This document shows, in pieces, positions 926 through 34,680 of a stretch of DNA of 64,000 nucleotides. The notes beneath the pieces are model-generated. The model had not been told where the DNA came from and ran no database searches. It worked only from the letters and a program-made list of their open reading frames with translations. A program made the translations under genes and the position numbers. Position 1 is the stretch's first letter. Every line of letters starts with the position of its first letter. The DNA comes from an uncultured archaeon (GTDB taxonomy: Archaea; Asgardarchaeota; Lokiarchaeia; Sigyniarchaeales; SOKP01), in NCBI GenBank assembly GCA_964486045.1, contig CAZALK010000003.1, forward strand, positions 1-64,000. The letters run 5' to 3'.

Positions 926-1172
926 TAATATTTTACACTTTTAGTGGATCTCTTTTTCGATAAAATTTGGCGTAAATTAATTCTTCTACAAGAGTAATAT
1001 AATCAAGTATGACGTTATAGCACTTGTTAAAATCTATGTCTAATTTGTTACTTCCAACTTTATAATGAACAATAGTTTAAAATATATCTATTTTAATTCC
1101 CGATTAAATAATATTATATTAAGGAGTATTAAAGAAACTTAAATATTGAATAAACATTTTCAGGCAAAAAGA

Positions 1173-11616: not shown

Positions 11617-11763
11617 TGGTTAAATAAAGCATTTGAAACTCGAAAAGAATTCATCCAAAAATATAAAGATAAAAACTGTATTATCATTGGAGGACACTTT
11701 GCTGGGAATCCTGCAGGTATTCTTAAACAGATTGAAAATAAAATCATATTTACTCCTTATTGA
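11617..11763 (+). pseudogene. C-terminal remnant of an MBL-fold metallo-hydrolase
   Basis: AFETRKEFIQKYKDKNCIIIGGHFAGNPAGILKQIENKIIFTPY* matches the typical MBL tail (A.ETR...GxHF...G). Confidence 0.55.
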
Positions 11764-11776
11764 TAGAAAGAGAAAA

Positions 11777-12508
11777 ATGAAAAAATTTATTGAAACTCTT
11801 TCTTTCAATGCTTATCTTTTGGGACATAAGAAGGGAAGACGGAAAATCTATGCGGATGGACGCAAAAGACGACTAATACCACACCAAACTGAAGTAAACA
11901 AATATTTACGCAAAATTGGACTCCAAAAAGCACGCAATATTTTGCGTGAATGTCTTGATGAACAACTAAAAAAAGCTTTAGTCCTAAATCTTATTTCTAA
12001 AAAGGTAAATGTTTTAATTGACTTTACAGAGCATCCATATTATGGGAAACGAGAAGATAAAATGATAAAAGGGACAAATCGGCAGAAGGGAACACTAAAA
12101 ATGCGTCATTACTTAGGATTTTCGATTTTATCACGAGAAACCCATCTATATACTGGATTAGAGCAAGTGGCAACTGGTCAATCTAAGATTCCCATAATTA
12201 TTAAATTTCTCGATCACCTACTTGATTTGGGATTTGAACTGAAATATGTATTAATGGATAGGGAATTCTATAGAGCAGAGTTATTGGATGAGATTAAAGG
12301 TATGGGTGGTGATGTCCTAATTCCTGCGAAGCAATACAAAAAGGTCAAACAATTTATAGCCGAATATTTAGAGGGAAAGAAGAATCGGGTCATAAAATAT
12401 ACGTTTTCTAGTGCTTTAGAGGCAAAATGTCGATTTTTTGCATATGTTTACCTAATAATAAAGGCAAAACGGGGTTTTTCTCTTCAAGGGGTCAAAAGAG
12501 ATGATTAA
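11777..12508 (+). mobile_element. Truncated DDE transposase (ISH3/IS4-like) remnant
   Basis: VLIDFTEHPYYG (first D), KGT...HYLGFSIL and VLMDREFY (second D). The ORF stops before the YxxRxxIE signature. No terminal inverted repeats were recognised. Confidence 0.8.
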
Positions 12509-12774: not shown

Positions 12775-15700
12775 TTAACTTGGTAATGTAAATTCAAAAG
12801 TAGTCCCCTTATTGAATCCCTCTGAGCTTGCTCGAATTTCCCCATTATGAGCAATAACGATACCTTTGGTGATATAAAGCCCTAATCCAGTCCCACTATC
12901 TTTAATGTTAAGATTTTCATTGAGAATTGGTTGTCTAATCCTTTCAAATTTTATAAATAATCGGAGTAATTCATCTTTTGCCAATCCTATCCCATTATCT
13001 TTTACTTCAAAGATATACTTATCTTCTTCTAGTTTACATGAAATTTCTATCCATCCATAATCTGGTGTAAATTTAATAGCATTTGAGATTAAATTTGTAA
13101 AAACTGTAAAGATACGAGTTGGATCAACATTCAACATTATTTCATGACTAATATTTAATATTATTTCAAGATTTTTTTCATTAATCAAATAACTTAGTTC
13201 ATCTAAACAATCATTTATTATCTTAGTAATATTTACTTGCTCTTTTTGGAGTTTCAATTTATTCTCATCAATCTTCATTACATCTAAAAGTTGATCCATT
13301 AAAACCTCGAGTCTGGTAACATTTCTCTGGACAGTTTTTAAATCATCTATAATCTCAGGAGATAATCGGTTCCTATGTTTCATTAAAATGTAATCAGTAT
13401 ATCCTGAAATTGAAATCAAGGGGGTTTTTAACTCGTGAGCAGCCATAGTTATAAAATCATTCTTAATCTCGTCCAATTTCATTAATTCAACATTTTGCTC
13501 CCTAAGTTTCTTTTCAGATTCCAATAAATCTTGCTGTAATTTGAATTTCTCAGTAATATCAGTAAATGTTCCTTCAACTTCTGCTATCTCTCCCTCAGAG
13601 TTATAAATAACGTGTGAATTCAGATCTATAGTTATCATGTTCCCATTCAACTTTTTAACTTGAGCAATAAAATTTCTGACAAAACCCTTTTCTTCTAGTT
13701 CATTGTAGTATCTTCTATTTATCTCTTCGCTAACAAAAAACTGACTAGAATCAGTACCAACTATACTCTCATCAAGTTCAAGGCCCAAAATTATGTTACA
13801 TGCCTGATTATGCATTAATAATGCACCTTTGTAGATTCCCCTATAAAATGCCACATCCAAGTTATTAACCATATTTCTGAAATTTAATTCTGATTCTTTT
13901 AATTTTTGTTCGGCTCTCTTATTTTCGGTTATGTCTTGACCTGAACTCAAGGAACCGATAACCATTCCTTCTGAGTTTTTTATTACTCGATTATACCACG
14001 CTATAATTCTTATTTCACCATTTTTTGTTATAATTGGTGCTTCAGTATTTTCAAGGAATTCAATTTCACCATTTATAAACCGGTTATAATTTTTTTTAAC
14101 AAGTTCTCTATTAATTTCAGGGATATATTTATCAATAAAATTTATTCCAATGATTTCAGACTCATCTTCTTCCAAAATTTCACATCCTTTTCGATTGATA
14201 AGTTGTACTGTCTGATCTGCATTTAAAACTAATAAAATTACGCCTGCTATATCTAGATAATTCTGAACTTTTTCTCTTTCTTCTTTTAACTTCTGCTCTG
14301 CTTTATTGCTTTCTGTGATATCTCGTATTATTGTTATTATTTGTTCAACTTTCCCTTCATGAAAGATCGGAATTTTCCGAGTCTCAGTGATTACTTCAAG
14401 TTCTGGCAGCAAGATGTTTTCCATTGTAATGAGGGGCATTCCAGTATCAAAAATTTGCTTATATTCATCAAAGATTTTAGAATCTAAGAATGGAAACGCT
14501 TCAGAAATCTTTCTTCCAAAAATCTCAGTATCTAGATTTAGTTCATCTAGCCAATTTTTAAATGCTTGGTTTACTAAAATTATTTTTAAATCCTTATTCA
14601 CTACATGTAGAGGATCACCTAGAGAATTAATTGTAGTTCGATACTGTCGTTCAGAATCTATGAGATCTTTCGTTCTTTCTTGAACTTTTTTTTCTAGACC
14701 TTTATTTAATATTTTTAATTCTTCTTGGGAATTTCTTAGATCTTTTTCGGCAATTTTCTGGGCTGTAACATCCTGTATTATTACCTGAAAAACCGTTTCT
14801 CTGCCAATCTTAACAAGACTATCATCTATATGTATCCAAATAGCACGGTTGTCAGAAGATCTCAAGATTTGAACCTCCATCGGTTCTGCTACTTTTCCAT
14901 CAAGAACTGCTGCATACCTTTCTTTAAATAATGGTAATAATTTCTCAGGTTTTATATATACATCAATAAAATTTTTATTTATTAAATTTTCAGCACTTAA
15001 ACCAAATATTTTCTCAGTAACTGGGTTAACATCAACTATTATTCCTTTTTTATTTACTAAAATGATTGAATAAGGGGAGGATTCAAATAAATGACGGTAC
15101 TTCCGTTCTGAAGAGTATTTTTCAGAAATGTTCCGAGCTAAACCACTAAATCCAATTTTTTTTCCATCGGAATCATATCTTAAATAGACAGAGGATTCGC
15201 AAGTTACGTGTTCTCCACTGCTTTTCTGAAATTGGAATTGAAAATCAGACTTAGATTGTTCAGTTTCAAACACTTCACGATAAGCGTCTCTATTTTTTTT
15301 TCGGTTTGCTTCATCAAGTAAGCTTTGATAATTTACTCCTAATAATTCATCTCTAGAAAACCCAATAAGATCAGAAAAAGCCTCGTTAATAAACGTAAAA
15401 GTTCCAAATAAATCAACCTCGAAATATGACTCTTTAATATTTTCGAGAATACCTCTGTATTTTTCTTCAGACTCTTTTAATTTTTGCTCAGAATACATCC
15501 TATTCGAAATATCTTCATATGTCACAAGGATTCCTACTACATTCCCCTCCATATCATGTAAAGGTATTCTATTAATCCCATACCAATTCTGTTTTCCACT
15601 GGGTGTTATTAATAGTTCAGTGACATTGTACTCTAACTTGTTATTCTTCATTACATTACGTTCGCAATCTTTGATGTAATCTAATTTATCTCTAACCCAT

Positions 15701-16320
15701 TTTAAATTATCATCTGTCTTCCCTATAATTGAATGAGGATTAACCAAGCCATTAATGGTCGCAAAATTAGTATTACATCCTAAATAAATCAAATTTGTGT
15801 CTTTCCAATAAATTAACTGAGGAATATTGTTAATTACAACTTCTAACATCTCTCGAGTTTTTTGGACAGCAGTAATGTTGTTCTTAGATTGAAGTAATTT
15901 CCAAAATTTAATTTCAGGTAAAGTATCTGCTAATTGAGTGTATCTAATTTGGCTTCTTTTAATTTCGTTTTCCATATTTTTTAACCTAGTAATATCTCTA
16001 CAAACGAGAAATACTTTATTGATATTATCATTATCAACAAATCTTTTTCCTTTAATTTCATACCACTTAAAAAGGTTATTATACCCATTTATCCTGAATA
16101 CATCCTTTCCATATCCAACTTTAAAGACTTTTTCCACAAATTTTATTCCTAGTCTGGAATCATCAGGATGTAGAAAATCGACCAGCTTCTTTTCAAAATC
16201 TAATTCTTTAATATTAAAGTATTCGCATTTAATATTTTCATTACAAATGAAAATAAGATCATCGATATTTTCAGAAATAAGTTGATTAATCCTATTGATA
16301 TTCTTAGTTAGGCTTGCCAT
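12775..16320 (-). CDS. Multi-PAS sensor histidine kinase (cytoplasmic)
   Basis: Many PAS/PAC repeats (RDIT/EDIS/QDVT...ESEEKYR), H-box AAHELKTPL, N-box NLISNAIKFTP, DNGIG and GTGLGL. Confidence 0.95.
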   Translation of the reverse strand: MASLTKNINRINQLISENIDDLIFICNENIKCEYFNIKELDFEKKLVDFLHPDDSRLGIKFVEKVFKVGYGKDVFRINGYNNLFKWYEIKGKRFVDNDNINKVFLVCRDITRLKNMENEIKRSQIRYTQLADTLPEIKFWKLLQSKNNITAVQKTREMLEVVINNIPQLIYWKDTNLIYLGCNTNFATINGLVNPHSIIGKTDDNLKWVRDKLDYIKDCERNVMKNNKLEYNVTELLITPSGKQNWYGINRIPLHDMEGNVVGILVTYEDISNRMYSEQKLKESEEKYRGILENIKESYFEVDLFGTFTFINEAFSDLIGFSRDELLGVNYQSLLDEANRKKNRDAYREVFETEQSKSDFQFQFQKSSGEHVTCESSVYLRYDSDGKKIGFSGLARNISEKYSSERKYRHLFESSPYSIILVNKKGIIVDVNPVTEKIFGLSAENLINKNFIDVYIKPEKLLPLFKERYAAVLDGKVAEPMEVQILRSSDNRAIWIHIDDSLVKIGRETVFQVIIQDVTAQKIAEKDLRNSQEELKILNKGLEKKVQERTKDLIDSERQYRTTINSLGDPLHVVNKDLKIILVNQAFKNWLDELNLDTEIFGRKISEAFPFLDSKIFDEYKQIFDTGMPLITMENILLPELEVITETRKIPIFHEGKVEQIITIIRDITESNKAEQKLKEEREKVQNYLDIAGVILLVLNADQTVQLINRKGCEILEEDESEIIGINFIDKYIPEINRELVKKNYNRFINGEIEFLENTEAPIITKNGEIRIIAWYNRVIKNSEGMVIGSLSSGQDITENKRAEQKLKESELNFRNMVNNLDVAFYRGIYKGALLMHNQACNIILGLELDESIVGTDSSQFFVSEEINRRYYNELEEKGFVRNFIAQVKKLNGNMITIDLNSHVIYNSEGEIAEVEGTFTDITEKFKLQQDLLESEKKLREQNVELMKLDEIKNDFITMAAHELKTPLISISGYTDYILMKHRNRLSPEIIDDLKTVQRNVTRLEVLMDQLLDVMKIDENKLKLQKEQVNITKIINDCLDELSYLINEKNLEIILNISHEIMLNVDPTRIFTVFTNLISNAIKFTPDYGWIEISCKLEEDKYIFEVKDNGIGLAKDELLRLFIKFERIRQPILNENLNIKDSGTGLGLYITKGIVIAHNGEIRASSEGFNKGTTFEFTLPS

Positions 16321-20669: not shown

Positions 20670-21617
20670 ATGGTTGAAGTCTGTATTGAATTTAATAACG
20701 TTTCTAAGAGCTATAAAGACGTTCTTGCTTTAGACAACATTTCTTTTACTATACAAAAGGGTGAAATTTTTGGGTATATTGGTCCAAACGGAGCTGGTAA
20801 GACGACTACAATTAAAATTATAGTAGGATTGATTAAGGATTTTAATGGAGATGTCTTTGTAAACCGAAACAATGTAATTACAAGTAAAAAAAAAGTACAA
20901 AATTTGATAGGATATCATCCACAAGAAGCAGGATTTCAGGAATGGCGTACTGTTGATCATGCTTTTAAAACCTTCGGTCGTCTTTCTGGACTTAGATCAG
21001 AACAGCTTGAATATCGTATTCATGAAATTTTAGAATTAGTCGGTCTAACAGATGTTCGAAGTAAGAAAATAGTTCACTTATCAGGAGGTATGTTTCAAAA
21101 ACTAAGACTAGGACAGGCTCTCCTACACGAACCAGAAATATTAATCTTAGATGAGCCTTTAGCAGGATTGGATCCATCAAGTAGGTTTCAATTTAAAAAA
21201 GTTATTAAAAAACTTGCTAAGAGTGGGATAACAATTTTATTCTCATCACATATTTTAAATGATGTTGAGGATATAGCAAACAGAATAGGGATTTTACATG
21301 AAGGGAAAATTAGAAAACTTGGAACCCCAGAAGATCTACAGAGCAGCTTCCAAGTTGGGAATATGATTGAAATAATTGTTGCTAAGAATACCCCTCTCTG
21401 TGAAGATATAGAAAGTTTATATAAAGTCGACTATGTAGAAAACCCTAAAGCAAACAAACAGTTAATTCACTTGAAATCTAATGTTGACATCGATTTAACC
21501 GTTTCCCAAATTATGAATTTATTAATAGAACAAAAATGTAGAATCCGTAGTTTTAATCTTGTAAAACCAAGTTTGGAACAAGTCTACTTAAAGTATGTTG
21601 GAAGTGAAACTGAGTGA
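20670..21617 (+). CDS. ABC-2 type transporter ATP-binding protein
   Basis: GPNGAGKTT, LSGG, LILDEP, SSH, and C-terminal PSLEQVYL. Confidence 0.95.
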   Translation: MVEVCIEFNNVSKSYKDVLALDNISFTIQKGEIFGYIGPNGAGKTTTIKIIVGLIKDFNGDVFVNRNNVITSKKKVQNLIGYHPQEAGFQEWRTVDHAFKTFGRLSGLRSEQLEYRIHEILELVGLTDVRSKKIVHLSGGMFQKLRLGQALLHEPEILILDEPLAGLDPSSRFQFKKVIKKLAKSGITILFSSHILNDVEDIANRIGILHEGKIRKLGTPEDLQSSFQVGNMIEIIVAKNTPLCEDIESLYKVDYVENPKANKQLIHLKSNVDIDLTVSQIMNLLIEQKCRIRSFNLVKPSLEQVYLKYVGSETE

Positions 21618-22276
21618 GTTTAAGATTACTTTTTATCGATGAATTACGGGGTTATGCAAAGTCAAAGGTAATGATTGTATTATGGATTGGCTTACCTCTA
21701 TTATCTTTTTTGATTCAATTTATTAATCCAGGTGAACTTGAAGGTATGCCAATATCATTTCTAGTTTCTCTTATTGTTTCAAGTATAGGAGGAACTCTTT
21801 CTGCGATAATGCTAAGCACATCAATTGTAAGTGAAAAAAATCGTCATGTTTATGAGTTATTCCTAATTAGACCAGTTAAACGTAGCAGTTTGATTTTAGC
21901 AAAATTTCTGGCAGTTTATTTATGTCTCGTTGTTGCTGTTGGAATTTCTCTTTCTGTTGGCTTGATAATTGATGGATTCGCTAACAAATTGTCAGAAAGT
22001 CTCTTGAATGTTACATTTGAGTATTTAATTATGAGTTTTTCCTCAATGGCGATTACATGTTCTATTGGAATTTTATTTGGTGTAGTAGTTTCCTCTGTAC
22101 CAATAGCGGCAATTTTGTCTGTATATTTAGGTAGTCAACTGTCATCATTGATTATTTTACCTATTTTCTTCTTGGAAGGTTTAGATCCCGTCATTCTATC
22201 TTTAGCTCTTGGAATACCTATATCAATTATCGTAATTGGAATTGATATATCATTATTTAACCGTCAACAATTCTAG
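21614..22276 (+). CDS. ABC-2 transporter permease
   Basis: About 6 TM segments and the motif SEK...ELFLIRPVKRSSLILAKFL. Overlaps the ATPase stop. Confidence 0.9.
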   Translation: MSLRLLFIDELRGYAKSKVMIVLWIGLPLLSFLIQFINPGELEGMPISFLVSLIVSSIGGTLSAIMLSTSIVSEKNRHVYELFLIRPVKRSSLILAKFLAVYLCLVVAVGISLSVGLIIDGFANKLSESLLNVTFEYLIMSFSSMAITCSIGILFGVVVSSVPIAAILSVYLGSQLSSLIILPIFFLEGLDPVILSLALGIPISIIVIGIDISLFNRQQF

Positions 22277-22296: not shown

Positions 22297-22893
22297 TCAC
22301 TCATTAATTTGTTCTTTATTGTTCTTAGAGAAACTGTGAAATGCATGTACAATTCTTTGAAGCACTGTTATAGTACTACCAATTGCTAAGATAATCATTG
22401 TCCACCAAATAGCGGTTGGAACCCAAATTTGTAGGATAGCTCCAATAAATAAAATCGGAACTCTATCAGTTCTTTCTATCAAACCGACTCCATATAAACT
22501 AGAGAATCCTAATGCTTCTATTTTTGCTCGAGTATAAGAAGTTAAAAATGCTCCAATCAGCACAATAAGACCTATTTCAAGAGTTGTATATCTACCATAA
22601 ATAACTCCAATGAGAATAAAGAAATCTCCAATTCTGTCTAAAGTCGAGTCATAAAATGCTCCCAATTTCGTAGGACCTTGAAGTCGAGCAACCACACCAT
22701 CTAACTGATCGAAGAATTCAGTAATAAATAAGAAAATTATAACAATAAAAAGAAATTGAAAAAATAACCCAAAAAATACTACTAAAGCAGAAAGTAAACC
22801 AAATATAGTAAAATAGTTAGCTGGAATTTTCTTTAATTTCTTACCTAAAGGGAGTAGAAGTTTAGCTGAGAATTTTTTTACTTGTAATAACAT
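22297..22893 (-). CDS. CDP-alcohol phosphatidyltransferase (archaetidylinositol-phosphate synthase-like)
   Basis: DQLDGVVAR...GAFYDSTLDR, SYTRAKIE, GLIERTDR. Confidence 0.92.
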   Translation of the reverse strand: MLLQVKKFSAKLLLPLGKKLKKIPANYFTIFGLLSALVVFFGLFFQFLFIVIIFLFITEFFDQLDGVVARLQGPTKLGAFYDSTLDRIGDFFILIGVIYGRYTTLEIGLIVLIGAFLTSYTRAKIEALGFSSLYGVGLIERTDRVPILFIGAILQIWVPTAIWWTMIILAIGSTITVLQRIVHAFHSFSKNNKEQINE

Positions 22894-23247
22894 TAAAAGA
22901 TATTCCTCTTTATAATAGAGATGTATTAATTAATGATTAAATTAATTTATTGCTGTTATCAAAAAAAATTATTGATGAACATCCAGTTTTTATTATGAGA
23001 TAAAATATTTAACCTAATTTCTTGTCTATGCGAAAATAATGCACAAATCTCAAAAAGAATAAGTTTAAAAAGTTAAATTTTCTTTACAATTGTAATAATC
23101 TTGAATATACTCCGAGATTATTGTTTTAATGGTGAGGTATTACAATTTTTAAAATGCTTGTTCAATGATTTTTTACGTGTTAACTCATAGGAAGTTAAAA
23201 ATTTATAATCTGAGAGGGTTGGAGCAAAAAATAGCACTCACGTTTGG

Positions 23248-24510
23248 ATGGGCAGAGGATTTGAATATAAAATGTTAGAATGTCTCCACAATAGTTTAAA
23301 AGAGCAAAGCAAAAAGATAACATCTTGGTATAACTCTAAAGTGAGAGCTTTAGAAGAAAAAAATATCGCTCTTCCTCTTTTTTCTTCTTTTGATATGAGA
23401 GATAGTGGATATAAAGCTTCGATTGTTGATTCCAATGTGTTTCCTGCCGGTTTTAACAATCTTGACTTAGAATCACAACTACATGCCTCTACAAGATTTT
23501 TTAATTATTTATCTTCCATTTCTTCGGAAAAGGATGTCTTAATTATTTCAGAAAATCATACAAGAAACACTTATTACTTCGATAACATTCACGTGTTATC
23601 TCGCATCTTAAACAAAGCAGGATTCAATACATATTTTGGTTATATTGAAGGAGAAAATAATTCTCGTCCTACTTTAGTTTTAAATAAATACGAAGAACCA
23701 TTAAAAGTTGAAAAAATTTTTAGAGATAATGGAAGAATTTTTACAGACTCATTCCATGATGGAATTATAATATTAAATAACGATCTTTCAGTTAATCGCC
23801 CAGAAATTTTAGATAACGTTCGTCAACATGTTTTACCTTCAATTTCTTTAGGTTGGTATAACAGGAAGAAGAGTACTCATTTTCAGTTGTTCAGCGAGTT
23901 AATTGATGAATTAGCCTCATTAATGTCATTTGATCCCTGGCTATTGAAGACTTTCTTTACATTTGTTGATGATATTAATTTTAAAGATAAAGATTCTCTT
24001 GATGATGTGGCTAAAGCTGTCAATTTGGTTATAGACGAAATATCTCTCAAATATGAAGAATTTGACATTCGTGAAGATCCGTTTGTTTTTGTTAAAGATA
24101 ATTCAGGTACTTATGGTTTAGGAATAATTTGTGTTTCTTCTGGAGAAGAAATAAAGAATCTCAATTCTAAAAAACGAAAAAAGATGATTTATGGAAAAGA
24201 AAGATCTCGAATCGATAGCGTTTTGATCCAAGAAGGGATTTATTCTAACTATCTTATGCATAATAACTCTGCTGAACCAGTATTATACAATGTGGGTGGA
24301 GAAGTTGTGGGAGGATTTATGCGAGTTAACAAGTTACAAGATAGAAATACAAATCTTAATACCAGAGGAATGAGTTTTCAAAAATTAATTGAAAACAATC
24401 AAACTCTACCCATTATCCTGAAAAATAATGAGTTTTCTTTATACTCACTGCTCACCAAAATAGCAGATTTAGCAATATCATATGAATATAAACAAACTTT
24501 ATTAGACTAG
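23248..24510 (+). CDS. gshA: Glutamate--cysteine ligase, divergent ATP-grasp-type GshA family
   Basis: PLFSSFDMRDSGYK...DSNVFPAGFNNL, ENHTRN..Y, ILNNDLS, GWYNRKKSTHF, FDPW, KDNSGTYGLG, AEPV.Y...VGGF.R, NLN..GM.F. Confidence 0.88.
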   Translation: MGRGFEYKMLECLHNSLKEQSKKITSWYNSKVRALEEKNIALPLFSSFDMRDSGYKASIVDSNVFPAGFNNLDLESQLHASTRFFNYLSSISSEKDVLIISENHTRNTYYFDNIHVLSRILNKAGFNTYFGYIEGENNSRPTLVLNKYEEPLKVEKIFRDNGRIFTDSFHDGIIILNNDLSVNRPEILDNVRQHVLPSISLGWYNRKKSTHFQLFSELIDELASLMSFDPWLLKTFFTFVDDINFKDKDSLDDVAKAVNLVIDEISLKYEEFDIREDPFVFVKDNSGTYGLGIICVSSGEEIKNLNSKKRKKMIYGKERSRIDSVLIQEGIYSNYLMHNNSAEPVLYNVGGEVVGGFMRVNKLQDRNTNLNTRGMSFQKLIENNQTLPIILKNNEFSLYSLLTKIADLAISYEYKQTLLD

Positions 24511-25454
24511 TGAATATTGTGAAATGGCTATTTGTGATAGATCCGATAGAAACTTTAAACTATGAAACCGATTCTACATATGCAATAATGAAAGAAGCTT
24601 ATCGTCAAAAAATTAATGTATTTTGTTGCCGTACACAAGATATTTTTTACAAAGAGGGAATTAGATGCTACTCAAGATCTTTTTCTCTTGAGGCTGAGAA
24701 TTTTAAAGTCGGGTCTGAAATAGACTCACACTTGGATACTTTTGATATTGTTTTCATGAGAAAAGATCCTCCTTATGATATGACGTTCCATTACTGTACC
24801 CAACTACTTTCTTTAACAAACTCTTTAGTTGTTAATTCTCCTCAAGCATTAAGAGATTTTAATGAAAAATTAATTATTCTTCCTTTTCTAGATTTTATCC
24901 CGGAAACTCTTGTAACTTCAAATGAATCTAAAATTTGGTCATTCTTGAACGAATTTCCAAATGGATTTATCCTTAAATCATTAGCCTCCTACCAAGGGCG
25001 TTCTGTTGCCTGGATCACTAAAAACGATAAGAACTCTGAAAAAGTTTTAAAAACCTATACAAAAAACTTCTCAACTCCGGTAATGATTCAAGAATATTTA
25101 CCCGACGTGAGTATTGGAGATAAACGCATCTTAGTATTAGGTGGTAAGATAATCGGAGCTGTTTTACGTGAGCCAAAAGATAATAACTATTTAGCGAATT
25201 TAGGCCAAGGTGGAATTGCTAGGAAAACTACCTTAACGGAGCGTGAAAATGAAATGGTTGAAGGAATTTCAAATTTCCTTATTAAGAATGGGTTACATTT
25301 TATTGGGTTAGATGTAATTGGGGATTACATAACTGAAATCAATATTACATGTCCAACTGGAGTTGTACACATTAACAAACTTAATAATATCGTTTTAGAA
25401 GAAGAAATTATAGATTACTTTCGAAATTTAGTAGAGACTTTTAATCCTATATAA
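24510..25454 (+). CDS. gshB: Glutathione synthetase (bacterial type)
   Basis: FVIDP...DST, MRKDPPYD, VNSPQALRDFNEKL, QEYLP, GDKRIL, ANLGQGG, GLDVIGDYITEINITCPTG. Its GTG overlaps the gshA TAG. Confidence 0.92.
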   Translation: MNIVKWLFVIDPIETLNYETDSTYAIMKEAYRQKINVFCCRTQDIFYKEGIRCYSRSFSLEAENFKVGSEIDSHLDTFDIVFMRKDPPYDMTFHYCTQLLSLTNSLVVNSPQALRDFNEKLIILPFLDFIPETLVTSNESKIWSFLNEFPNGFILKSLASYQGRSVAWITKNDKNSEKVLKTYTKNFSTPVMIQEYLPDVSIGDKRILVLGGKIIGAVLREPKDNNYLANLGQGGIARKTTLTERENEMVEGISNFLIKNGLHFIGLDVIGDYITEINITCPTGVVHINKLNNIVLEEEIIDYFRNLVETFNPI

Positions 25455-25499: not shown

Positions 25500-27002
25500 C
25501 TATATTCTATAAATAGGATAAAATTTTTCTTCAATATATTTCAGAAAATAGTCTGAATTCAAGTCTTCTCCAGTAACTCTTTTTATTAAATCGTTAGCTC
25601 TATAAATACCACCATGCTGATGAATATTTTCTCTCAGATAGTTCAATAAATTAGAAAAATTCCCTTTGCTGTAATCATCAGGTAAATTTGGCATCTCCTC
25701 CAGTGCTTTTGCATATATTTGAGCACCATATAGATTTCCAAGAAAATACGTAGGGAAATACCCAAACAGTCCCCCAGAGAAATGAACATCTTGCAAAACA
25801 CCTAGTGCATCATTTGGAGGAACAATTCCTAATAATTCTTCAAATTTAGTATTCCATACTTCTGGTAATTCATTTACATTAATATTCCCTTCAATGAGAG
25901 CCTTTTCTATTTCAAATCTTAAAATAATATGCAGACCATAAGTTACTTCATCCGCATTTACCCTGATGAAAGAAGGTTGAACAATATTGATAGCTCTATG
26001 AAAATCTTCCATAGGATAATCTTTTAAATTATCCGGGAAGTATTGTTGAAAAGTTGGATACCAATACATCCAAAATTCTTTACTGCGACCAACAATATTT
26101 TCCCACATTCTTGATTGTGATTCATGGATTCCCATTGATGCACCAGATCCTAAAATTGTGTCATGCAACTCCTCTTTAATGCCCATCTCATAAATGGCAT
26201 GACCATACTCGTGAATTGTACTTGTAATACAATCTGGAAAGGGTTCCGTTGTTCTCGTGGTAATTCTAACATCCTTTGCCGCGAGAGAAGTCGTAAATGG
26301 ATGTGTTACTTTATCTTGTCGCCCAGAGCTAAAATCAAACTTCAATTTTTTAATAATTTTCCCGCTTAATTCAAATTGTTTATCCTCATCATAATGCTTC
26401 TTAAAAATTGAATCATCAGGTTTATCTGAAGAAGAATTTAGTTTCTTAACAAAATCAATTAATTTTGGTTTAATTGGGTCGAAGATATTGGCAATCCAAT
26501 CATATGTCGCTCCTGGTTCATATAAATCTATTAATGTAGAGTATATATCAGGATGAGTCCCAAGTTTTTCTGCTTTTTCCTTCTGTAATTCAACAATTTT
26601 TTCTAATATTTTTTCAAAAATTGAAAAATCACTTTTTGCTCTAGCCTCTTGCCAATTCTTCGCAGCTAATACACTAGTTTCAGCAATTTCAACAACTAAT
26701 GATACGGGTAATTTTGTTTCTAGGTTATATTCTCTTGTAATTTCGCGTAACATCGCACTTTCAATTTCGTTAAGATTAAGTTTTCCAGCTTCTTTTATTA
26801 ACTTTCCTACTTTTTCGGATGTTATTCTTTGATGAATTAACTTACTTATTAATGAGACTTGTTTTGACCTACCCTCAACAGATTCATAATTCATCATATT
26901 AACTTCCTGATCCCAATTCAAAAGAGATGAAATATAACTTAACCTTAATATTTCAGCAAAATATTCTCTAAGTTCATTCATTACATTCATTCTAGGTACC
27001 AT
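25500..27002 (-). CDS. Carboxypeptidase, family M32 (Taq-like)
   Basis: LNWDQE, HPF, DVRITTR, HEYGH, HESQS, IRVNADE, QDVHF, GYFPTY. Confidence 0.95.
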   Translation of the reverse strand: MVPRMNVMNELREYFAEILRLSYISSLLNWDQEVNMMNYESVEGRSKQVSLISKLIHQRITSEKVGKLIKEAGKLNLNEIESAMLREITREYNLETKLPVSLVVEIAETSVLAAKNWQEARAKSDFSIFEKILEKIVELQKEKAEKLGTHPDIYSTLIDLYEPGATYDWIANIFDPIKPKLIDFVKKLNSSSDKPDDSIFKKHYDEDKQFELSGKIIKKLKFDFSSGRQDKVTHPFTTSLAAKDVRITTRTTEPFPDCITSTIHEYGHAIYEMGIKEELHDTILGSGASMGIHESQSRMWENIVGRSKEFWMYWYPTFQQYFPDNLKDYPMEDFHRAINIVQPSFIRVNADEVTYGLHIILRFEIEKALIEGNINVNELPEVWNTKFEELLGIVPPNDALGVLQDVHFSGGLFGYFPTYFLGNLYGAQIYAKALEEMPNLPDDYSKGNFSNLLNYLRENIHQHGGIYRANDLIKRVTGEDLNSDYFLKYIEEKFYPIYRI

Positions 27003-27145: not shown

Positions 27146-28708
27146 TTACACAATCTGTTCTTGTTTTACAAAAAAATCGGCAGCTAACTTAACATCCTCA
27201 ATAGTTAACGCTCTTCGTAAAGATTGTGCTAAATCTGTAACTAATTGTTCACATAACTTTAAACTGAGCGAACTCCCCTTTTCTGTGATAATTTTTTGTA
27301 ATTCCTTTGAAAAATCTACAGTTACAGGCTGTTTTATCTCTTTACTTAATTTTTCGTGAGGGGGGAATAATTCCATAGGCATTCTTACATCTGATCTTGT
27401 TGATATTTCTTCCCGACTTTTTGAAGGGATATATTGTTTTTTAAATTTAGCGGAACTTTCAGAAGGTTTTAAAAGTTTTAGACCAACAGGCTTACCCTCT
27501 AATTTTTGAAATGATGTCATTCCACTAGACAATCTTGTGGGTGGAGGTGGCAATTCTTCCTCAGCTTCCTCATTATTAAAGAATTTAAGCGAACGAGTTC
27601 CAGTGGGTAGTGGTTTAACTTTAACTTTCCTTTTAAATTTTAATCGTTTTGGGATTTCAAAATCTTTACCCTTCTCACTTTCTTTTCTTTTATCTCTCAA
27701 ATCTCTCAAAACTGCTGTCAAATCAAGTATTTTTTGTTCGAAAAGTTTAAGATGTTCAAAATCTTGATATGTCGTACAGACATTAACTAAATCTCTATAT
27801 TTTGCTAAAGCTTGAACAATATTCCCTAATTTAACTAATTTTTCTGCTTCTTTTACAGCCTCTTCAAAATTAGATGGTAATTTTTCCTTCATTCCTAAAA
27901 TTTCTTTGATATATCCTTGAAGTTGTTTTTTTGCATCAGGAGAATTTAAGGAAATTTCTTTAAAATCATAGATATTTAATTCATTTTTAATTCTTTTGAT
28001 GTCCTCGTCTTCTACTAAATCACGTTTATTTCCAATTATTAATAATTTCGCATATTTGCTCTCAAGTTTCTGCATATTCATAAAATGATTCAATATTTTC
28101 AAGTTGTAGTTTGCTAAATTAAATAAAAGGATTATAAGATCAGATCCCCTTAAAAATTTCGGCCAAAGACTCGAGAAATTATCTTTTAATCGAAAATACC
28201 AGAGCTCAAAACTTAGATCTTCAATCTGAATAGTACTTGACTTTGCAAAGTCCATAATGATCTTTTCCTGCTCACTTCTTAATAAATTGTATAGTGTAGT
28301 TTTTCCCACATGAGTTGGACCGATAATAGAGATTTTGGAATGTAAAGCGCTCTGAATTTCGTCAAGAAAGCTTGAAAACTCATCCTTCAACGCACTTGAT
28401 TCTTGAATTTTGGTGGGATCAGTAAATAATTCTTGAAATCTTGCTACTGTATCATCTAATATTTTTTCTATGTATTGAATTGAATCACTTAAGTCAGTTA
28501 CAAATAGAAAATATAAATCATCTATCCCTTTATGAAAAATTTGGAAAGAAGAATGTTTGCGGTTAATGATTTTGCCAGGAAGGGGCAGTTCCATATATTT
28601 ATCTAAGGTATCTTTAATATTTCTTAATTCAGTATTCCCATAAGCAATAGCGTAATCTTTAACATAAATATGTTCCTTATGATAAAAAATATGAATTTGA
28701 CGTAGCAT
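27146..28708 (-). CDS. Longin-like + small GTPase-like (Arf/Rab superfamily) + helical domain protein
   Basis: N-terminal longin-like pattern, G1 GPTHVGKTT, G4 NKRD, a degenerate G3 (WYFRLKD), a MIT/TPR-like helix pair and a Pro-rich linker. Confidence 0.8.
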   Translation of the reverse strand: MLRQIHIFYHKEHIYVKDYAIAYGNTELRNIKDTLDKYMELPLPGKIINRKHSSFQIFHKGIDDLYFLFVTDLSDSIQYIEKILDDTVARFQELFTDPTKIQESSALKDEFSSFLDEIQSALHSKISIIGPTHVGKTTLYNLLRSEQEKIIMDFAKSSTIQIEDLSFELWYFRLKDNFSSLWPKFLRGSDLIILLFNLANYNLKILNHFMNMQKLESKYAKLLIIGNKRDLVEDEDIKRIKNELNIYDFKEISLNSPDAKKQLQGYIKEILGMKEKLPSNFEEAVKEAEKLVKLGNIVQALAKYRDLVNVCTTYQDFEHLKLFEQKILDLTAVLRDLRDKRKESEKGKDFEIPKRLKFKRKVKVKPLPTGTRSLKFFNNEEAEEELPPPPTRLSSGMTSFQKLEGKPVGLKLLKPSESSAKFKKQYIPSKSREEISTRSDVRMPMELFPPHEKLSKEIKQPVTVDFSKELQKIITEKGSSLSLKLCEQLVTDLAQSLRRALTIEDVKLAADFFVKQEQIV

Positions 28709-29880: not shown

Positions 29881-31362
29881 ATGGAAGAAAATGAAAAAGA
29901 CCTTATAGAAATCAATTCAATAAGAGAATTTGTGATGGCTAGTAGAATTGATGATGCAGTTAAACTAATTGCTCTCTATCTTGGCGATTCTACGGAAGAA
30001 AATTATATAGATAGATTAGAAAATATTATTGAACTGTTATTATCGCTCCACGGAGGAAGAGTTGTGCTAAGATTTTTAATTGAAAATCTTGTAATTGACA
30101 TTTCTTCTCTGTTGGAAAATCTTTCTAAAAAAGATTCCGTATTGAGATATACTTTCTTGCTATTATTAAAAACAATTTGTGAAAACGAGTGTGATCTATT
30201 TCTGCCTTACAGTGAAGATTTATTAAATTCCGATGAACCAAATGTACGAGAGGCTGACTTACAACTTTTGATATATATGGCAGGAGGAGATAATATAATC
30301 AATGATGAATCATTAATTAGGGGTATAACCTTAAAACTTACAGATGAAAAAGATTTTGTTGTAGAGAAGGCTATCCAAACTTTAAAAGCAATAGGAGAAA
30401 AATCCCCCTCAATAGTAACAAAAGTTTTAACGGATTTCGTCAAAGAAAATTCACAAGTTCCTGAAAATGAAGAATTGAGAAATTCGGTTGATAGTATAAT
30501 TAAGTCATTTGTTACAATTGAAAAGATTGAAGAAATCGTTGAAGCTACTGAAGAAAAAAAGGATGATGATCTAAAGAAAGAAGTGTCTGAAATCACTGAT
30601 AAAGAATTAGAATTGAAAAAGAAAGACTTAGAATTGAAAAAGAAAAAACTGGAGCTAGCGAAAAAAGAAAAGATATTAGGGGAAAAATCAATAAAGGAAA
30701 AAGGAAAAGTATTAAAATTAAAAGAGGAGCTTCTTGTTGAGGAAACAAAACTTTCCGAAGAGGAAATATTAGTTGATAAGGCACCAATGAAAAAAATACC
30801 AAAGAAGCTAAAGAAAGAAGTTTCTGAGATTAGAGGTAAAGAAATAGAATTGAAAAAGAAAGGATTGGAACTTGAAAAGAAAAAATTGGAATTAGAAGAA
30901 GAAGGAAAGAAATTAGAGGAAAAATCAATACAGGAAAAAGAAAAAGTATTAAAATTAAAAGAGGAGCTTCTTGTTGAGGAGACAAAACTATCCGGAGAAG
31001 AAATATTAGTTGATATAGTTCCAATGAAAAAAGTGCCTAAGGAGTTAAAGAAGGAAGTCTCGGAGATTAAGGCTAAAGAAAAAGAATTACAGAAAAAAGA
31101 TTTAGAAATTAAAAAGAAAAAGCTAGAGTTGGAGGAAAAAGAAAAAGAGTTGGAAGAAAGGGAAATTATTGAAAAAGAAAAGACTTTAAAAATTAAAGAA
31201 GAATTTATTGAAAAGGAAAAAGCATTATCTCAAGTGGAATTAGAGTTAAAGCAGAAGGTCATTAAACAGAAAGAACAAAAGATCCTAGAAGAAGAAGCAG
31301 AAAGAGTTGATAACCAATTGAAGAAACTGTCAAAAAAAGAGAAAAATGATGAAAATTCTTAA
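29881..31362 (+). CDS. HEAT/ARM N-terminus with a K/E-rich coiled-coil C-terminus
   Basis: HEAT-like DEPNVREADL and DEKDFVVEKAIQTL, followed by a long K/E coiled coil. Confidence 0.8.
   Translation: MEENEKDLIEINSIREFVMASRIDDAVKLIALYLGDSTEENYIDRLENIIELLLSLHGGRVVLRFLIENLVIDISSLLENLSKKDSVLRYTFLLLLKTICENECDLFLPYSEDLLNSDEPNVREADLQLLIYMAGGDNIINDESLIRGITLKLTDEKDFVVEKAIQTLKAIGEKSPSIVTKVLTDFVKENSQVPENEELRNSVDSIIKSFVTIEKIEEIVEATEEKKDDDLKKEVSEITDKELELKKKDLELKKKKLELAKKEKILGEKSIKEKGKVLKLKEELLVEETKLSEEEILVDKAPMKKIPKKLKKEVSEIRGKEIELKKKGLELEKKKLELEEEGKKLEEKSIQEKEKVLKLKEELLVEETKLSGEEILVDIVPMKKVPKELKKEVSEIKAKEKELQKKDLEIKKKKLELEEKEKELEEREIIEKEKTLKIKEEFIEKEKALSQVELELKQKVIKQKEQKILEEEAERVDNQLKKLSKKEKNDENS
30571..31220 (+). 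repeat. 237-bp (79-aa) in-frame repeat, about 2.7 copies
   Basis: LKKEVSEI units start at 30571, 30808 and 31045, exactly 237 bp apart. Confidence 0.9.
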
Positions 31363-33232: not shown

Positions 33233-33877
33233 ATGATTTATTTACAAGAAATTTTGAATCTGACACCTGCTACTCCAGAAACCCTAAATTCTTTTATAAA
33301 ATTAAGCCAAAATTTATTAGTACCTGTATGTAAACGCTTAGGAACGCGACTTGTAGTTGCGTGGTTTAGTCATTATGAATGGTTCTTTCAGGTAACTCAC
33401 GTTTTTGAATTTGCTGATATGAAGCCGCTAAAAGAATTTCGAATTAAAGCTAGCCAAGATGAACAATGGGGTGAATATAACGCAGAGTTAGATGGTTTTG
33501 CTCCAGAACGTCGCACTCGATTACTCGAACCAATAGGTGCAATTTCACCAGATGTACTTAATAAAGCAATCGAAGAAAGCCAGAAAACACCTCTTAAAGT
33601 TTATAGTTTAGCAACTCTAGGAGTAACTCCGAATAAAATGACCGAATTTGTTGAATTTGTGGAAACTTTGTCAAAAAATGCCCCGATTATCGCAAGTTGG
33701 CGACCAATTGCTGGTAATCCAAATGAAGTAAATGATTTATGGAAAGGAGATATTGGACCAAAAGATTCCCAACCTGTTGTTGAGGGGATGAAAGAATGGT
33801 TCCGAAAACTTCGAGAATTGGCACCAAAAGAGCGTTTAGTACAAATTTACCCTCTCCCATATTCTGAATTAAAATAG
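33233..33877 (+). CDS. NIPSNAP-family protein (copy 1)
   Basis: MIYLQEIL..., RLGTRLVVAW, two ferredoxin-like halves, ending PLPYSELK. Confidence 0.8.
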   Translation: MIYLQEILNLTPATPETLNSFIKLSQNLLVPVCKRLGTRLVVAWFSHYEWFFQVTHVFEFADMKPLKEFRIKASQDEQWGEYNAELDGFAPERRTRLLEPIGAISPDVLNKAIEESQKTPLKVYSLATLGVTPNKMTEFVEFVETLSKNAPIIASWRPIAGNPNEVNDLWKGDIGPKDSQPVVEGMKEWFRKLRELAPKERLVQIYPLPYSELK

Positions 33878-34026: not shown

Positions 34027-34680
34027 ATGATATATTTAGAGCAAACTCTTAATATTACACCAGCGAGTCCAGATATTCGGGATGATTATATTAAGGTTGC
34101 CGAAGAATTACTAGTCCCAGCATGCAAACGTCTTGGAGCACGTTTAGTAGCTGCTTGGAATGCGAATTCTGAATGGTTTATGCAGACAACTCAAATATTT
34201 GAGTTTAATGATATAGAAAACTTGAAGAAATTTCGGATTAACGCTAGTCAAGATAAAGAATGGGGTGAATATTTGGCTCAATTAGAGGTTTTTGCCCCGG
34301 AACGCCGTACTCGACTACTAGAACCTATAGGTGCGGTCCCACCAGAAGTACTGCATAAAGCAATAGAAGAGAGCCAGAAAACACCACTCAAAGCTTATAG
34401 TATGGCGATTCTTGAGGTAAATCCCGGGAAAATGCCGGATATGATTGCTGGAATATCAACAGGATATAAAGCAATGCCGATTATTGCAAGCTGGCGACCA
34501 ATTGCTGGAAGTCCAAATCAAATTATGGATTTATGGAAGGGAGATATATTGTTTAATGCTAACAATATGGCATATCGTCCTTTTAGCAAAGAACAACAAT
34601 GGGTTCGAGATCTTCGAGAAAATGCACCTAAAGAAAGAATCATGGCTTTATATACATTACCCTATTCTCCCCTGAAGTAA
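34027..34680 (+). CDS. NIPSNAP-family protein (copy 2, tandem paralog)
   Basis: Shares FAPERRTRLLEPIGA, KAIEESQKTPLK and PIIASWRPIAG with copy 1. Confidence 0.8.
   Translation: MIYLEQTLNITPASPDIRDDYIKVAEELLVPACKRLGARLVAAWNANSEWFMQTTQIFEFNDIENLKKFRINASQDKEWGEYLAQLEVFAPERRTRLLEPIGAVPPEVLHKAIEESQKTPLKAYSMAILEVNPGKMPDMIAGISTGYKAMPIIASWRPIAGSPNQIMDLWKGDILFNANNMAYRPFSKEQQWVRDLRENAPKERIMALYTLPYSPLK

What the first reader, a model, noticed from the sequence alone, without database searches (positions are those of the whole stretch)
23248..25454. Complete gshA-gshB glutathione biosynthesis operon in an Asgard archaeon
Seen in sequence: a divergent-type GshA and a bacterial-type GshB, both intact, with overlapping stop and start codons (TAG/GTG at 24510) and an AT content like the host. 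Established knowledge: glutathione is typical of Proteobacteria, Cyanobacteria and eukaryotes, whereas haloarchaea stop at gamma-glutamylcysteine and archaeal GshB-like annotations are usually RimK-type. This protein has GshB-specific motifs (DP...DST, MRKDPP, EINxTxPTG). Inference: an old bacterial transfer giving true glutathione synthesis in the lineage related to eukaryotes. These are not the eukaryotic enzyme types.
Basis: partly seen in the sequence, partly recalled or inferred. Interest (0 to 1): 0.7.

Follow-up and report, generated by a model that had tools for sequence, protein, structure and literature searches.

The report
Lokiarchaeal gshA-gshB glutathione gene pair
A real, native two-gene cassette for making glutathione (or a very close relative of it) sits in this Lokiarchaeial genome, but it is a rare, patchily kept, bacterial-type cassette shared with DPANN archaea and some anaerobic bacteria, its second enzyme has remodelled substrate loops, and the genome lacks the usual glutathione-using enzymes.

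Summary
Two intact, tightly coupled ORFs encode a PF08886/TIGR02049-type glutamate-cysteine ligase and a prokaryotic ATP-grasp glutathione synthetase. The contig is genuinely Asgard (Lokiarchaeia): it carries an actin and an Arf/Ras-like GTPase. About 22 kb is collinear with six congeners that lack only these two genes. A seventh congener has the cassette at the same site.

The RimK/LysX alternative is rejected by HMM scores and by fold (TM 0.93 to E. coli GshB 1GSA against about 0.7 to RimK/LysX/ArgX).

The cassette is rare: 7 of 400 genomes of the phylum, all in one class. In a concatenated tree the Lokiarchaeial copies form one clade (100/98). Its sister group is DPANN plus Spirochaetota copies, and both are far from the proteobacterial gshA-gshB operons. 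The transfer is therefore old and of bacterial type, but the donor is unresolved.

Two caveats apply:
- This GshB subfamily replaces the small loop GMGG with SYQG and lacks Arg233 in the large loop, so glycine as third substrate is inferred, not shown.
- No glutathione reductase equivalog, GST, GPx, ChaC or GloB was found.

The proteins are already auto-annotated in public databases, and nanohaloarchaeal GshAB has been published. Interest is moderate.

The parts
23248..24510 (+). gshA, a glutamate-cysteine ligase of the PF08886/TIGR02049 ('A. ferrooxidans') type. The likely true start is ATG 23272 (412 aa).
   Evidence: Pfam GshA E 1.5e-120. TIGR02049 equivalog scores 372.7 bits against a cut-off of 293.9. 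PDB 3K1T matches at E 1.9e-74 over residues 16-417. The protein keeps all 59 invariant columns of a 15-sequence alignment that includes Proteobacteria. Homologue N-termini support the later start.
24510..25454 (+). gshB, a prokaryotic ATP-grasp glutathione synthetase of a remodelled-loop ('SYQG-type') subfamily. The alternative start is GTG 24519.
   Evidence: GSH-S_N E 1.6e-27 plus GSH-S_ATP E 7e-50. NF003573 scores 297.6 against cut-off 272, but TIGR01380 scores 279.7 against 299.05. 1GSA matches at E 8.7e-49. The AF2 model has pLDDT 94.5 and TM 0.93, rmsd 1.6 A, to 1GSA. Window residues R84, K120, K156, D204, R206, R220, D268, E276 and N278 correspond to E. coli R86, K125, K160, D208, R210, R225, D273, E281 and N283. 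Window S160-Y-Q-G163 replaces G164-M-G-G167, L228 replaces R233 and C281 replaces S286.
22894..23247 (+). AT-rich upstream region (GC 0.237) with a BRE/TATA-like element (GTTAAAAATTTATAA, about 23194-23208) 40-65 nt before the candidate starts. The promoter role is inferred.
   Evidence: Sequence, GC. Blocks including the TATA-like element are conserved with the upstream region of the G022 cassette.
22297..22893 (-). Left boundary of the indel: a CDP-alcohol phosphatidyltransferase resembling archaetidylinositol phosphate synthase.
   Evidence: PF01066. NF040950 scores 153 bits, below the cut-off of 180. In six congeners this gene directly abuts the M32 peptidase. In G022 it is followed by gshA.
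25500..27002 (-). Right boundary of the indel: an M32 carboxypeptidase, convergent with gshB across a 45-nt gap.
   Evidence: PF02074 E 3.9e-172. It is present in 39 of 41 genomes of the genus (G000 included) at 63-86% identity. Synteny is shown.

Best explanation
This is a native, expressed-looking two-gene cassette for a gamma-glutamyl-cysteinyl tripeptide thiol, most likely glutathione.

Mechanism, inferred from family membership and not assayed:
- GshA, an ATP-grasp-like PF08886 ligase, uses ATP to join the gamma-carboxyl of glutamate to cysteine.
- GshB, translationally coupled to GshA, phosphorylates the cysteinyl carboxylate of gamma-Glu-Cys and lets an amino acid, presumably glycine, attack the acyl phosphate.

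History:
- The cassette has the gshA-then-gshB order that is the norm in Beta- and Gammaproteobacteria.
- It belongs to a separate, deeply diverged lineage shared by Lokiarchaeia, DPANN archaea and Spirochaetota.
- It entered an ancestor within the Lokiarchaeial order long ago and became fully ameliorated.
- Only a few lineages have kept it. In this genus it sits between an archaetidylinositol-phosphate-synthase-like gene and an M32 carboxypeptidase.

Because no dedicated reductase, GST or peroxidase is present, the thiol probably acts as a simple low-molecular-weight redox or metal buffer. It does not look like the hub of a full glutathione enzyme network.
For: Family and fold:
- HMM and PDB matches for both proteins.
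- The model has TM 0.93 to 1GSA, against 0.70-0.73 for RimK/ArgX/LysX.
- 25 positions that are at least 90% conserved in canonical GshB, including all ATP/Mg/catalytic residues and the MRKDPP Arg, are kept in 118 SYQG-type sequences.

Native to this genome:
- About 22 kb is collinear at 50-90% amino-acid identity with six congeners that lack only the cassette.
- G022 has the cassette at the same site with a partly conserved upstream region.
- The contig carries actin (E 4.8e-91) and an Arf/Ras GTPase.
- Codon usage is host-like.

History:
- gshA and gshB are adjacent in all seven positive genomes.
- The single-gene trees agree with each other.
- In the concatenated careful tree the Loki clade has support 100/98, its DPANN plus Spirochaetota sister 98/96, and the two together 100/100 apart from named bacteria.
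- Branching inside the Loki clade follows taxonomy. Identities fall in the same order as PurD: 76, 72, 70 and 55%.
- 58 of 80 named bacterial loci have gshB directly after PF08886 gshA.
- More than 50 distinct 90%-identity clusters of Loki-clade GshB exist in metagenomes, including the original Loki's Castle LCGC14 data.
Against: - No enzyme of this GshB subfamily has been characterised, as far as I know.
- The small lid loop reads SYQG instead of GMGG. The large-loop Arg233 is Leu. From memory, the title of Tanaka et al. 1992 (Biochemistry 31:2259) calls Arg233 critical for catalysis. Ser286 is Cys.
- TIGR01380 scores below its cut-off.
- The genome has no gor equivalog, GST_N or GST_N_3, GPx, ChaC or GloB over cut-off.
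- Neither the unassigned flavoprotein disulfide reductase nor GGT co-varies with the cassette.
- Most relatives do without the cassette.
- There are no expression data.
Confidence: 0.7

Rival explanations
1. The cassette makes a glutathione analogue rather than glutathione. The remodelled GshB lids select a third substrate other than glycine (gamma-Glu-Cys-X), giving Lokiarchaeia and DPANN archaea a thiol of their own.
For: - Every member of the clade has S(Y/F)QG for GMGG, no Arg at position 233, and TCPT for TSPT.
- All 14 named bacterial GshBs that sit next to PF08886 gshA keep xMGG/xKGG; 13 keep (T/L/I/F)R(G/A/N)N, and L037 Gracilibacteria reads FKGN (Lys for Arg233).
- The changes sit in the two loops that close over the substrates in 1GSA.
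- TIGR01380 scores below its cut-off.
- The genome has no glutathione-specific partner enzymes.
Against: - All catalytic and gamma-Glu-Cys-side residues are kept.
- The model superposes on the closed GSH complex at 1.6 A.
- About a quarter of diverse GshB-family representatives also lack Arg233, so it is not universally required.
- NF003573 scores above its cut-off.
- No amidotransferase or other tailoring gene is linked to the cassette.
Confidence: 0.17
2. The segment is a chimeric or contaminant bacterial insertion in the MAG, not part of the archaeon.
For: The genome's estimated contamination is 7.8%. The gene families are mainly bacterial.
Against: - Both flanks are collinear with six congeners.
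- An independent congener assembly (G022) has the cassette at the same junction.
- Composition and codon usage are host-like.
- The nearest homologues are Lokiarchaeial.
- The contig is 305,878 bp long and carries Asgard signature genes.
Confidence: 0.01
3. The second gene is a RimK/LysX/ArgX-type alpha-L-glutamate or carrier-protein ligase misread as GshB.
For: A weak PF08443 RimK hit (E 1.7e-13) overlaps the ATP-grasp domain.
Against: - TIGR00768 scores 65.5 against cut-off 143.4, LysX 33.8 against 275.6, and RimK PRK10446 37.9 against 331.
- The GshB-specific N-terminal domain is present.
- TM is 0.93 with rmsd 1.6 A to 1GSA, against TM 0.70-0.73 with rmsd 5-7 A to RimK/ArgX/LysX.
- No LysW-like or S6 partner is adjacent, and the upstream gene is a GshA.
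Confidence: 0.01
4. The cassette spreads among Lokiarchaeia, DPANN and anaerobic bacteria by repeated recent transfer. It does not descend vertically with losses. On this view its presence at the same site in two congeners comes from recombination between relatives.
For: - The distribution is very patchy: 7 of 400.
- Genomic contexts differ in G038, G199 and G197, and in G038 the cassette sits next to a DNA methylase and an RHH protein.
- The G057 copy falls outside the Loki clade.
- G013 is closer to the window genome than G022 at flanking genes, yet lacks the cassette.
- The flanking-gene tree does not resolve whether the two carriers are sisters.
Against: - The Loki clade is monophyletic with internal order genus < family < order, and divergence tracks PurD.
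- The cassette is fully ameliorated.
- No integrase, transposase or repeats flank it in the window.
Confidence: 0.25

Closest known systems
Escherichia coli glutathione synthetase GshB (EC 6.3.2.3; PDB 1GSA, 1GSH, 2GLT)
   Same: Same two-domain architecture (GSH-S_N plus ATP-grasp) and same length. Identity is 33% (Foldseek structural alignment to 1GSA); phmmer E 8.7e-49. The model has TM 0.93 and rmsd 1.6 A. It keeps R86, K125, K160, Q198, D208, R210, R225, N235, D273, E281 and N283.
   Different: The small loop G164-M-G-G167 reads S-Y-Q-G. Arg233 is Leu, Ser286 is Cys and Pro161 is Ser. Subfamily-specific W4, Y91 and H96 are present. The subfamily is a separate clade (98 SH-aLRT; 100/100 in the concatenated tree).
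PF08886/TIGR02049 glutamate-cysteine ligase. From memory, it was first shown by complementation with the Acidithiobacillus ferrooxidans gene. A structure is available as PDB 3K1T.
   Same: The full-length match is over both curated cut-offs. 3K1T matches at E 1.9e-74. gshB lies directly downstream, as in 58 of 80 named bacterial loci.
   Different: Identity to proteobacterial members is only 34-41%. The protein belongs to the Loki plus DPANN plus Spirochaetota branch.
gshAB of DPANN archaea (Nanoarchaeota/Woesearchaeota MAGs). GshAB is also annotated in cultured nanohaloarchaea (PMC10266531).
   Same: It is the nearest sister lineage for both genes (45-48% identity). It has the same gene order and the same SYQG/no-Arg233 GshB. 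An adjacent archaeal GshAB is already reported at annotation level.
   Different: The phylum differs, and the Loki copies form their own clade (100/98). I did not test whether the nanohaloarchaeal genes belong to the same subfamily.
Haloarchaeal gamma-glutamylcysteine system (GCS2-type GshA, no GshB)
   Same: It is an archaeal low-molecular-weight thiol made through a glutamate-cysteine ligase.
   Different: The ligase family differs: PF04107 was not found in this genome. Haloarchaea stop at gamma-Glu-Cys, whereas here a GshB follows (PMC7278568).

Membership tests
Prokaryotic glutathione synthetase GshB (PF02951+PF02955; NF003573/TIGR01380) | GSH-S_N N-terminal domain followed by the GSH-S_ATP ATP-grasp domain | tested here: met
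   PF02951 E 1.6e-27 (residues 5-115) and PF02955 E 7e-50 (residues 119-292).
Prokaryotic glutathione synthetase GshB (PF02951+PF02955; NF003573/TIGR01380) | Score above the curated equivalog cut-off | tested here: inconclusive
   NF003573 scores 297.6, above its cut-off of 272. TIGR01380 scores 279.7, below its cut-off of 299.05.
Prokaryotic glutathione synthetase GshB (PF02951+PF02955; NF003573/TIGR01380) | ATP/Mg2+/acyl-phosphate residues (E. coli K125, K160, D208, R210, R225, D273, E281, N283) and the MRKDPP Arg86 | tested here: met
   All are conserved in the window protein and in 118 subfamily members.
Prokaryotic glutathione synthetase GshB (PF02951+PF02955; NF003573/TIGR01380) | Glycine-rich small loop (G164-G167) and Arg233 of the large flexible loop | tested here: not met
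   The small loop reads SYQG and position 233 is Leu228 in window numbering. This holds across the Loki, DPANN and Spirochaetota clade; the same region reads SFQG / YHANF in the unnamed P0219-P0242 clade. Among the top-150 family representatives, about a quarter also lack Arg233.
Prokaryotic glutathione synthetase GshB (PF02951+PF02955; NF003573/TIGR01380) | Fold of E. coli GshB | tested here: met
   The AF2 model has pLDDT 94.5 and pTM 0.91. Foldseek gives 1GSA at TM 0.93, rmsd 1.6 A, E 5e-33.
Prokaryotic glutathione synthetase GshB (PF02951+PF02955; NF003573/TIGR01380) | Catalyses gamma-Glu-Cys + Gly + ATP -> GSH | not testable with these tools
   This needs an enzyme assay or complementation.
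PF08886/TIGR02049 glutamate-cysteine ligase (GshA, 'ferrooxidans type') | Full-length match over the curated cut-offs | tested here: met
   PF08886 scores 402.9 bits against cut-off 25. TIGR02049 scores 372.7 against 293.9.
PF08886/TIGR02049 glutamate-cysteine ligase (GshA, 'ferrooxidans type') | Family-invariant residues retained | tested here: met
   59 columns are invariant across Loki, DPANN, Spirochaetota and Proteobacteria, the window protein included. Alignment to 3K1T covers residues 16-417.
PF08886/TIGR02049 glutamate-cysteine ligase (GshA, 'ferrooxidans type') | Genomic pairing with gshB downstream | tested here: met
   The pairing holds in the window and in all seven positive Asgard genomes. 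It also holds in 58 of 80 named bacterial loci.
RimK / LysX / ArgX alpha-L-glutamate ligases | Score over the family cut-off and closest fold | tested here: not met
   TIGR00768 scores 65.5 against 143.4. LysX scores 33.8 against 275.6. TM is 0.70-0.73 with rmsd 5-7 A.
Canonical glutathione redox network (Gor, Grx, GST, GPx, GloB, ChaC) | Glutathione-disulfide reductase equivalog in the genome | tested here: not met
   The best TIGR01421 score is 247 against cut-off 556. The four paralogues are MerA, Lpd and two unassigned proteins. The unassigned one does not co-vary with gshAB.
Canonical glutathione redox network (Gor, Grx, GST, GPx, GloB, ChaC) | GST, GPx, ChaC, GloB and classical glutaredoxin | tested here: not met
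   PF13417, PF02798, PF00255 and PF04752 gave no hit. TIGR03413 scored at most 87 against cut-off 200.8. Only two small Grx-like proteins (CMWC, CHRC) were found; the one that hit any NCBIfam Grx equivalog model scored far below its cut-off, the other hit none. GGT is present, but also in 23 of 61 relatives regardless of gshAB.

The most novel reading that the evidence does not exclude
Lokiarchaeia, DPANN archaea and some anaerobic bacteria share a distinct, uncharacterised gshA-gshB lineage. Its GshB has both substrate lids remodelled (SYQG small loop, no Arg233, TCPT). It may ligate something other than glycine, which would make a previously unrecognised glutathione-like tripeptide the low-molecular-weight thiol of these archaea.
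Probability: 0.15. Interest if true: 0.65.

Novelty: new member of a known kind. Interest (0 to 1): 0.4.

Why it matters
A 2020 review of archaeal thiols reported no archaeal GshB hits (PMC7278568). Glutathione is usually treated as a bacterial and eukaryotic molecule. This locus shows that some Lokiarchaeia, and many DPANN archaea, carry a complete and conserved gshA-gshB cassette. The low-molecular-weight thiol of at least some Asgard archaea could therefore be glutathione-like, and this can be tested by expression and LC-MS.

It does not bear directly on eukaryogenesis. The enzymes are not the eukaryotic types, and the cassette is rare (7 of 400 genomes) and confined to one class. The remodelled GshB loops give a concrete biochemical question about substrate specificity.

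Tried and rejected
It returned only proteobacterial-type loci at 34-41% identity. It gave named outgroups but no named close relatives.
I could not read the contexts of the DPANN, Spirochaetota and unnamed neighbours. I paired GshA with GshB only by identical longest-contig lengths.
- I looked for a partner reductase by co-occurrence. The unassigned flavoprotein disulfide reductase on C2 has orthologues only in G004 and G013, which lack gshAB, and none in G022 or G038. GGT is present in 23 of 61 relatives regardless of gshAB. No link emerged.
- A tree of flanking genes (PurD N-terminus plus CDP-OH transferase, 369 columns, 8 genomes) did not resolve whether the two cassette-bearing congeners are sisters.
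- Literature searches for the role of Arg233 in E. coli GshB found nothing in the held library. That point rests on memory.
- The upstream DrrA-like ABC-2 pair (20670-22276) was considered as a possible thiol exporter, prompted by earlier scan notes. It is retained in congeners that lack gshAB and matches no specific family, so I did not link it to the cassette.
- The window holds no tRNA or Rfam hits. No direct repeats flank the cassette, and no mobile-element gene is adjacent.
- The G057 copy may be misbinned. It is identical to a protein that NCBI labels 'Candidatus Deferrimicrobium sp.', it lies outside the Loki clade, and its neighbours are undiagnostic.
Full report
**Observation**

They are 23248-24510 (+, 420 aa) and 24510-25454 (+, 314 aa, GTG start). 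The TAG stop and the GTG start share base 24510.

Homologues refine the starts:
- GshA relatives are 412-413 aa and begin MLEHL..., which corresponds to ATG 23272.
- The syntenic congener G022 has no ATG at the position of 23248.
- GshB relatives start either at the equivalent of 24510 (MIIMKWLF) or at 24519 (MKWLF).

Either way the two genes are translationally coupled or nearly so. GC, GC3 and codon usage of both genes sit in the middle of the range of 26 other window genes.

**What the proteins are**

GshA:
- It matches Pfam PF08886 at E 1.5e-120.
- It scores 372.7 bits on the NCBIfam equivalog TIGR02049 (cut-off 293.9).
- It aligns with PDB 3K1T over residues 16-417 at E 1.9e-74.
- It keeps every one of 59 columns that are invariant across Lokiarchaeial, DPANN, Spirochaetota and proteobacterial members.

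GshB:
- It has the GshB-specific N-terminal domain and the GSH-S ATP-grasp domain.
- It passes NF003573 (297.6 against 272) but falls short of TIGR01380 (279.7 against 299.05).
- It matches E. coli GshB 1GSA at E 8.7e-49.
- An AlphaFold2 model (pLDDT 94.5, pTM 0.91) superposes on 1GSA with TM 0.93 and rmsd 1.6 A.
- RimK, ArgX and LysX reach only TM 0.70-0.73 at rmsd 5-7 A, and their HMMs score far below their cut-offs.

**A caveat in the active site**

I aligned 264 GshB-family sequences, including E. coli GshB taken from NC_000913.

The window protein and all its near relatives keep 25 positions that are at least 90% conserved in canonical GshBs. These include R86, K125, K160, Q198, D208, R210, R225, N235, D273, E281 and N283.

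Both substrate-lid loops, however, are remodelled:
- G164-M-G-G167 reads S-Y-Q-G.
- Arg233 is Leu (Leu228 in window numbering).
- Ser286 is Cys.
- Pro161 is Ser.

These changes appear. All 14 named bacterial GshBs that sit next to a PF08886 gshA keep the canonical small loop, and 13 of them keep (T/L/I/F)R(G/A/N)N (L037 Gracilibacteria has Lys at position 233).

From memory, Arg233 was called critical for catalysis in E. coli (Tanaka et al. 1992). I could not find the details in the held library. About a quarter of the top 150 family representatives also lack this Arg, so it is not a universal requirement.

Glycine as the third substrate is therefore an inference. An analogue remains possible.

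**Is it really in an Asgard genome?**

Yes.
- The window is the first 64 kb of a 305,878-bp contig of a 5.18-Mb genome estimated at 99% complete.
- It encodes an actin (PF00022, E 4.8e-91) and a 520-aa Arf/Ras-like GTPase.
- The gene left of the cassette resembles archaetidylinositol phosphate synthase.
- The best-named homologues of both proteins carry the labels 'Lokiarchaeota', 'Lokiarchaeia' and 'Promethearchaeota archaeon (CR_4)'. Others come from the Loki's Castle LCGC14 sediment metagenome.

The strongest evidence is synteny. In six congeners the whole 12-34 kb neighbourhood is collinear at 50-90% amino-acid identity. There the CDP-alcohol transferase directly abuts the M32 carboxypeptidase, and gshAB is simply missing. 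In a seventh congener (G022), gshA follows the same transferase. Its upstream region shares blocks with the window, including the BRE/TATA-like element. This excludes a chimeric join.

**Distribution**
- PF08886 and PF02951 hit the same genomes: 4 of 61 relatives.
- GshB was found in 7 of 400 genomes of the phylum, G000 included.
- All seven lie in the window's class. Five are in its family (two of about 54 species of its genus), one is in another family of the order, and one is in another family of the class.
- In every case the two genes are adjacent and in the same order.
- Outside the genus the neighbours differ: a methylase and RHH protein in G038, an LRR protein and EF-1alpha in G199, thymidylate synthase and TatD in G197. 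Only the two-gene unit is conserved.
- Metagenomes hold more than 50 distinct 90%-identity clusters of Loki-clade GshB, so the cassette is rare among species representatives but not a singleton.

**Phylogeny**

Quick single-gene trees agree with each other. A careful concatenated GshA+GshB tree used 40 rows, 716 columns and the model LG+C20+F+G4. It shows:
- The Lokiarchaeial copies form one clade (UFBoot/SH-aLRT 100/98).
- The sister group contains Nanoarchaeota/Nanoarchaeia, Spirochaetota and unnamed sequences (98/96).
- Both together are separated by a long, fully supported branch (100/100) from named Proteobacteria, a Verrucomicrobia MAG and Gracilibacteria.

Inside the Loki clade the order of branching follows taxonomy: order, then family, then genus. 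Identities to the window protein are:

| Protein | G022 | G199 | G197 | G038 |
|---|---|---|---|---|
| GshA | 70% | 57% | 52% | 44% |
| PurD | 76% | 70% | 72% | 55% |

GshA thus declines broadly in parallel with PurD. This pattern fits one old acquisition within the order followed by many losses. Transfer among relatives is not excluded. The G057 copy lies outside the clade, and the flanking-gene tree is unresolved.

The gshA-then-gshB order is the bacterial norm for this GshA type (58 of 80 named loci). An ultimately bacterial origin is therefore reasonable. The immediate donor cannot be named, and the tree is unrooted.

**Physiological setting**

The genome has none of the following:
- a glutathione reductase equivalog (its four flavoprotein disulfide reductases are MerA, Lpd and two unassigned);
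- GST, GPx, ChaC or true GloB;
- GCS2-type GshA or BshC.

It has two small glutaredoxin-like proteins with CMWC and CHRC motifs. It also has a gamma-glutamyltranspeptidase, but so do 23 of 61 relatives regardless of gshAB. One unassigned reductase does not co-vary with the cassette.

My reading is that the thiol serves as a simple redox or metal buffer and is recycled by non-dedicated systems. This is inference only.

**Comparison with what is known**

[quoted passage not shown] Adjacent GshAB has been reported, by annotation, in cultured nanohaloarchaea (PMC10266531).

The 2020 review of archaeal thiols found no archaeal GshB. It queried InterPro entry IPR037013 (PMC7278568). I found no paper in the held library that discusses gshAB in Asgard archaea.

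Earlier notes of this scan had already seen the remodelled GshB loops in another genome (e1-5184734). I saw the same SFQG/YHANF clade in my alignment.

**Verdict**

This is a new member of a known kind, found in an unexpected lineage and belonging to an uncharacterised GshB subfamily. Interest is moderate.

Noticed in passing
window 1146-2294 (+): A 382-aa actin homologue (PF00022, E 4.8e-91, nearly full-length match to the model). This is the Lokiactin-type Asgard signature gene.
   Followed up: no
window 27146-28708 (-): A 520-aa protein with an Arf/Roc/Ras-like small-GTPase domain at residues about 114-253 and long unassigned N- and C-terminal parts. It is conserved next to the M32 peptidase in all six congeners, at only 51-70% identity.
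   Followed up: no
window 25500-27002 (-), and congeners: The M32 carboxypeptidase is a single copy here. It is tandemly duplicated (two copies about 150 bp apart, 63-68% identity to the window copy for the second) in many congeners, such as G005, G031, G029, G007 and G003.
   Followed up: no
window 23055-23125 and 23138-23215: Blocks of the gshA upstream region are conserved with G022, for example ATAAGTTTAA.AAG..AAATTTTCTTTA, TAATAATCTTGA and TTACAATTTTT. Imperfect inverted repeats (TTTACAATTGTAATA / TATTACAATTTTTAA) are also present. This could be a regulator binding site.
   Followed up: partly
L023 (G057:C123:1-6000) and P0218: The GshB of G057, which GTDB places in the same class, is identical to a protein that NCBI labels 'Candidatus Deferrimicrobium sp.'. 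It falls outside the Loki clade. This points to a taxonomic label conflict, misbinning or a separate acquisition.
   Followed up: partly
G000:C2:244159-245514 (-) and G000:C1:137154-138677 (-): Two class-I flavoprotein disulfide reductase paralogues match no NCBIfam equivalog over cut-off. Their best hits are Lpd or mycothione-reductase-like. The C2 paralogue has orthologues in only 2 of 60 relatives. Their substrates are unknown.
   Followed up: partly
window 11633-12508 (+) and 12775-16320 (-): A DDE transposase (PF01609) lies next to an 1181-aa multi-PAS histidine kinase. The kinase is only 41-50% identical in congeners, while its neighbours are 70-80% identical.
   Followed up: no
window 33233-33877 and 34027-34680 (+): Two adjacent paralogous ORFs of 214 and 217 aa cross-match each other's homologues in congeners at 54-81% identity. 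Some relatives have one copy and others two. I did not look up their function.
   Followed up: no
window 29881-31362 (+): A 493-aa protein gives only a weak, sub-threshold hit to RTP1_C1, a eukaryotic RNA polymerase II nuclear-import factor domain (E 2e-4, 21.8 bits against cut-off 25.9). This is probably a chance match to HEAT-like repeats.
   Followed up: no
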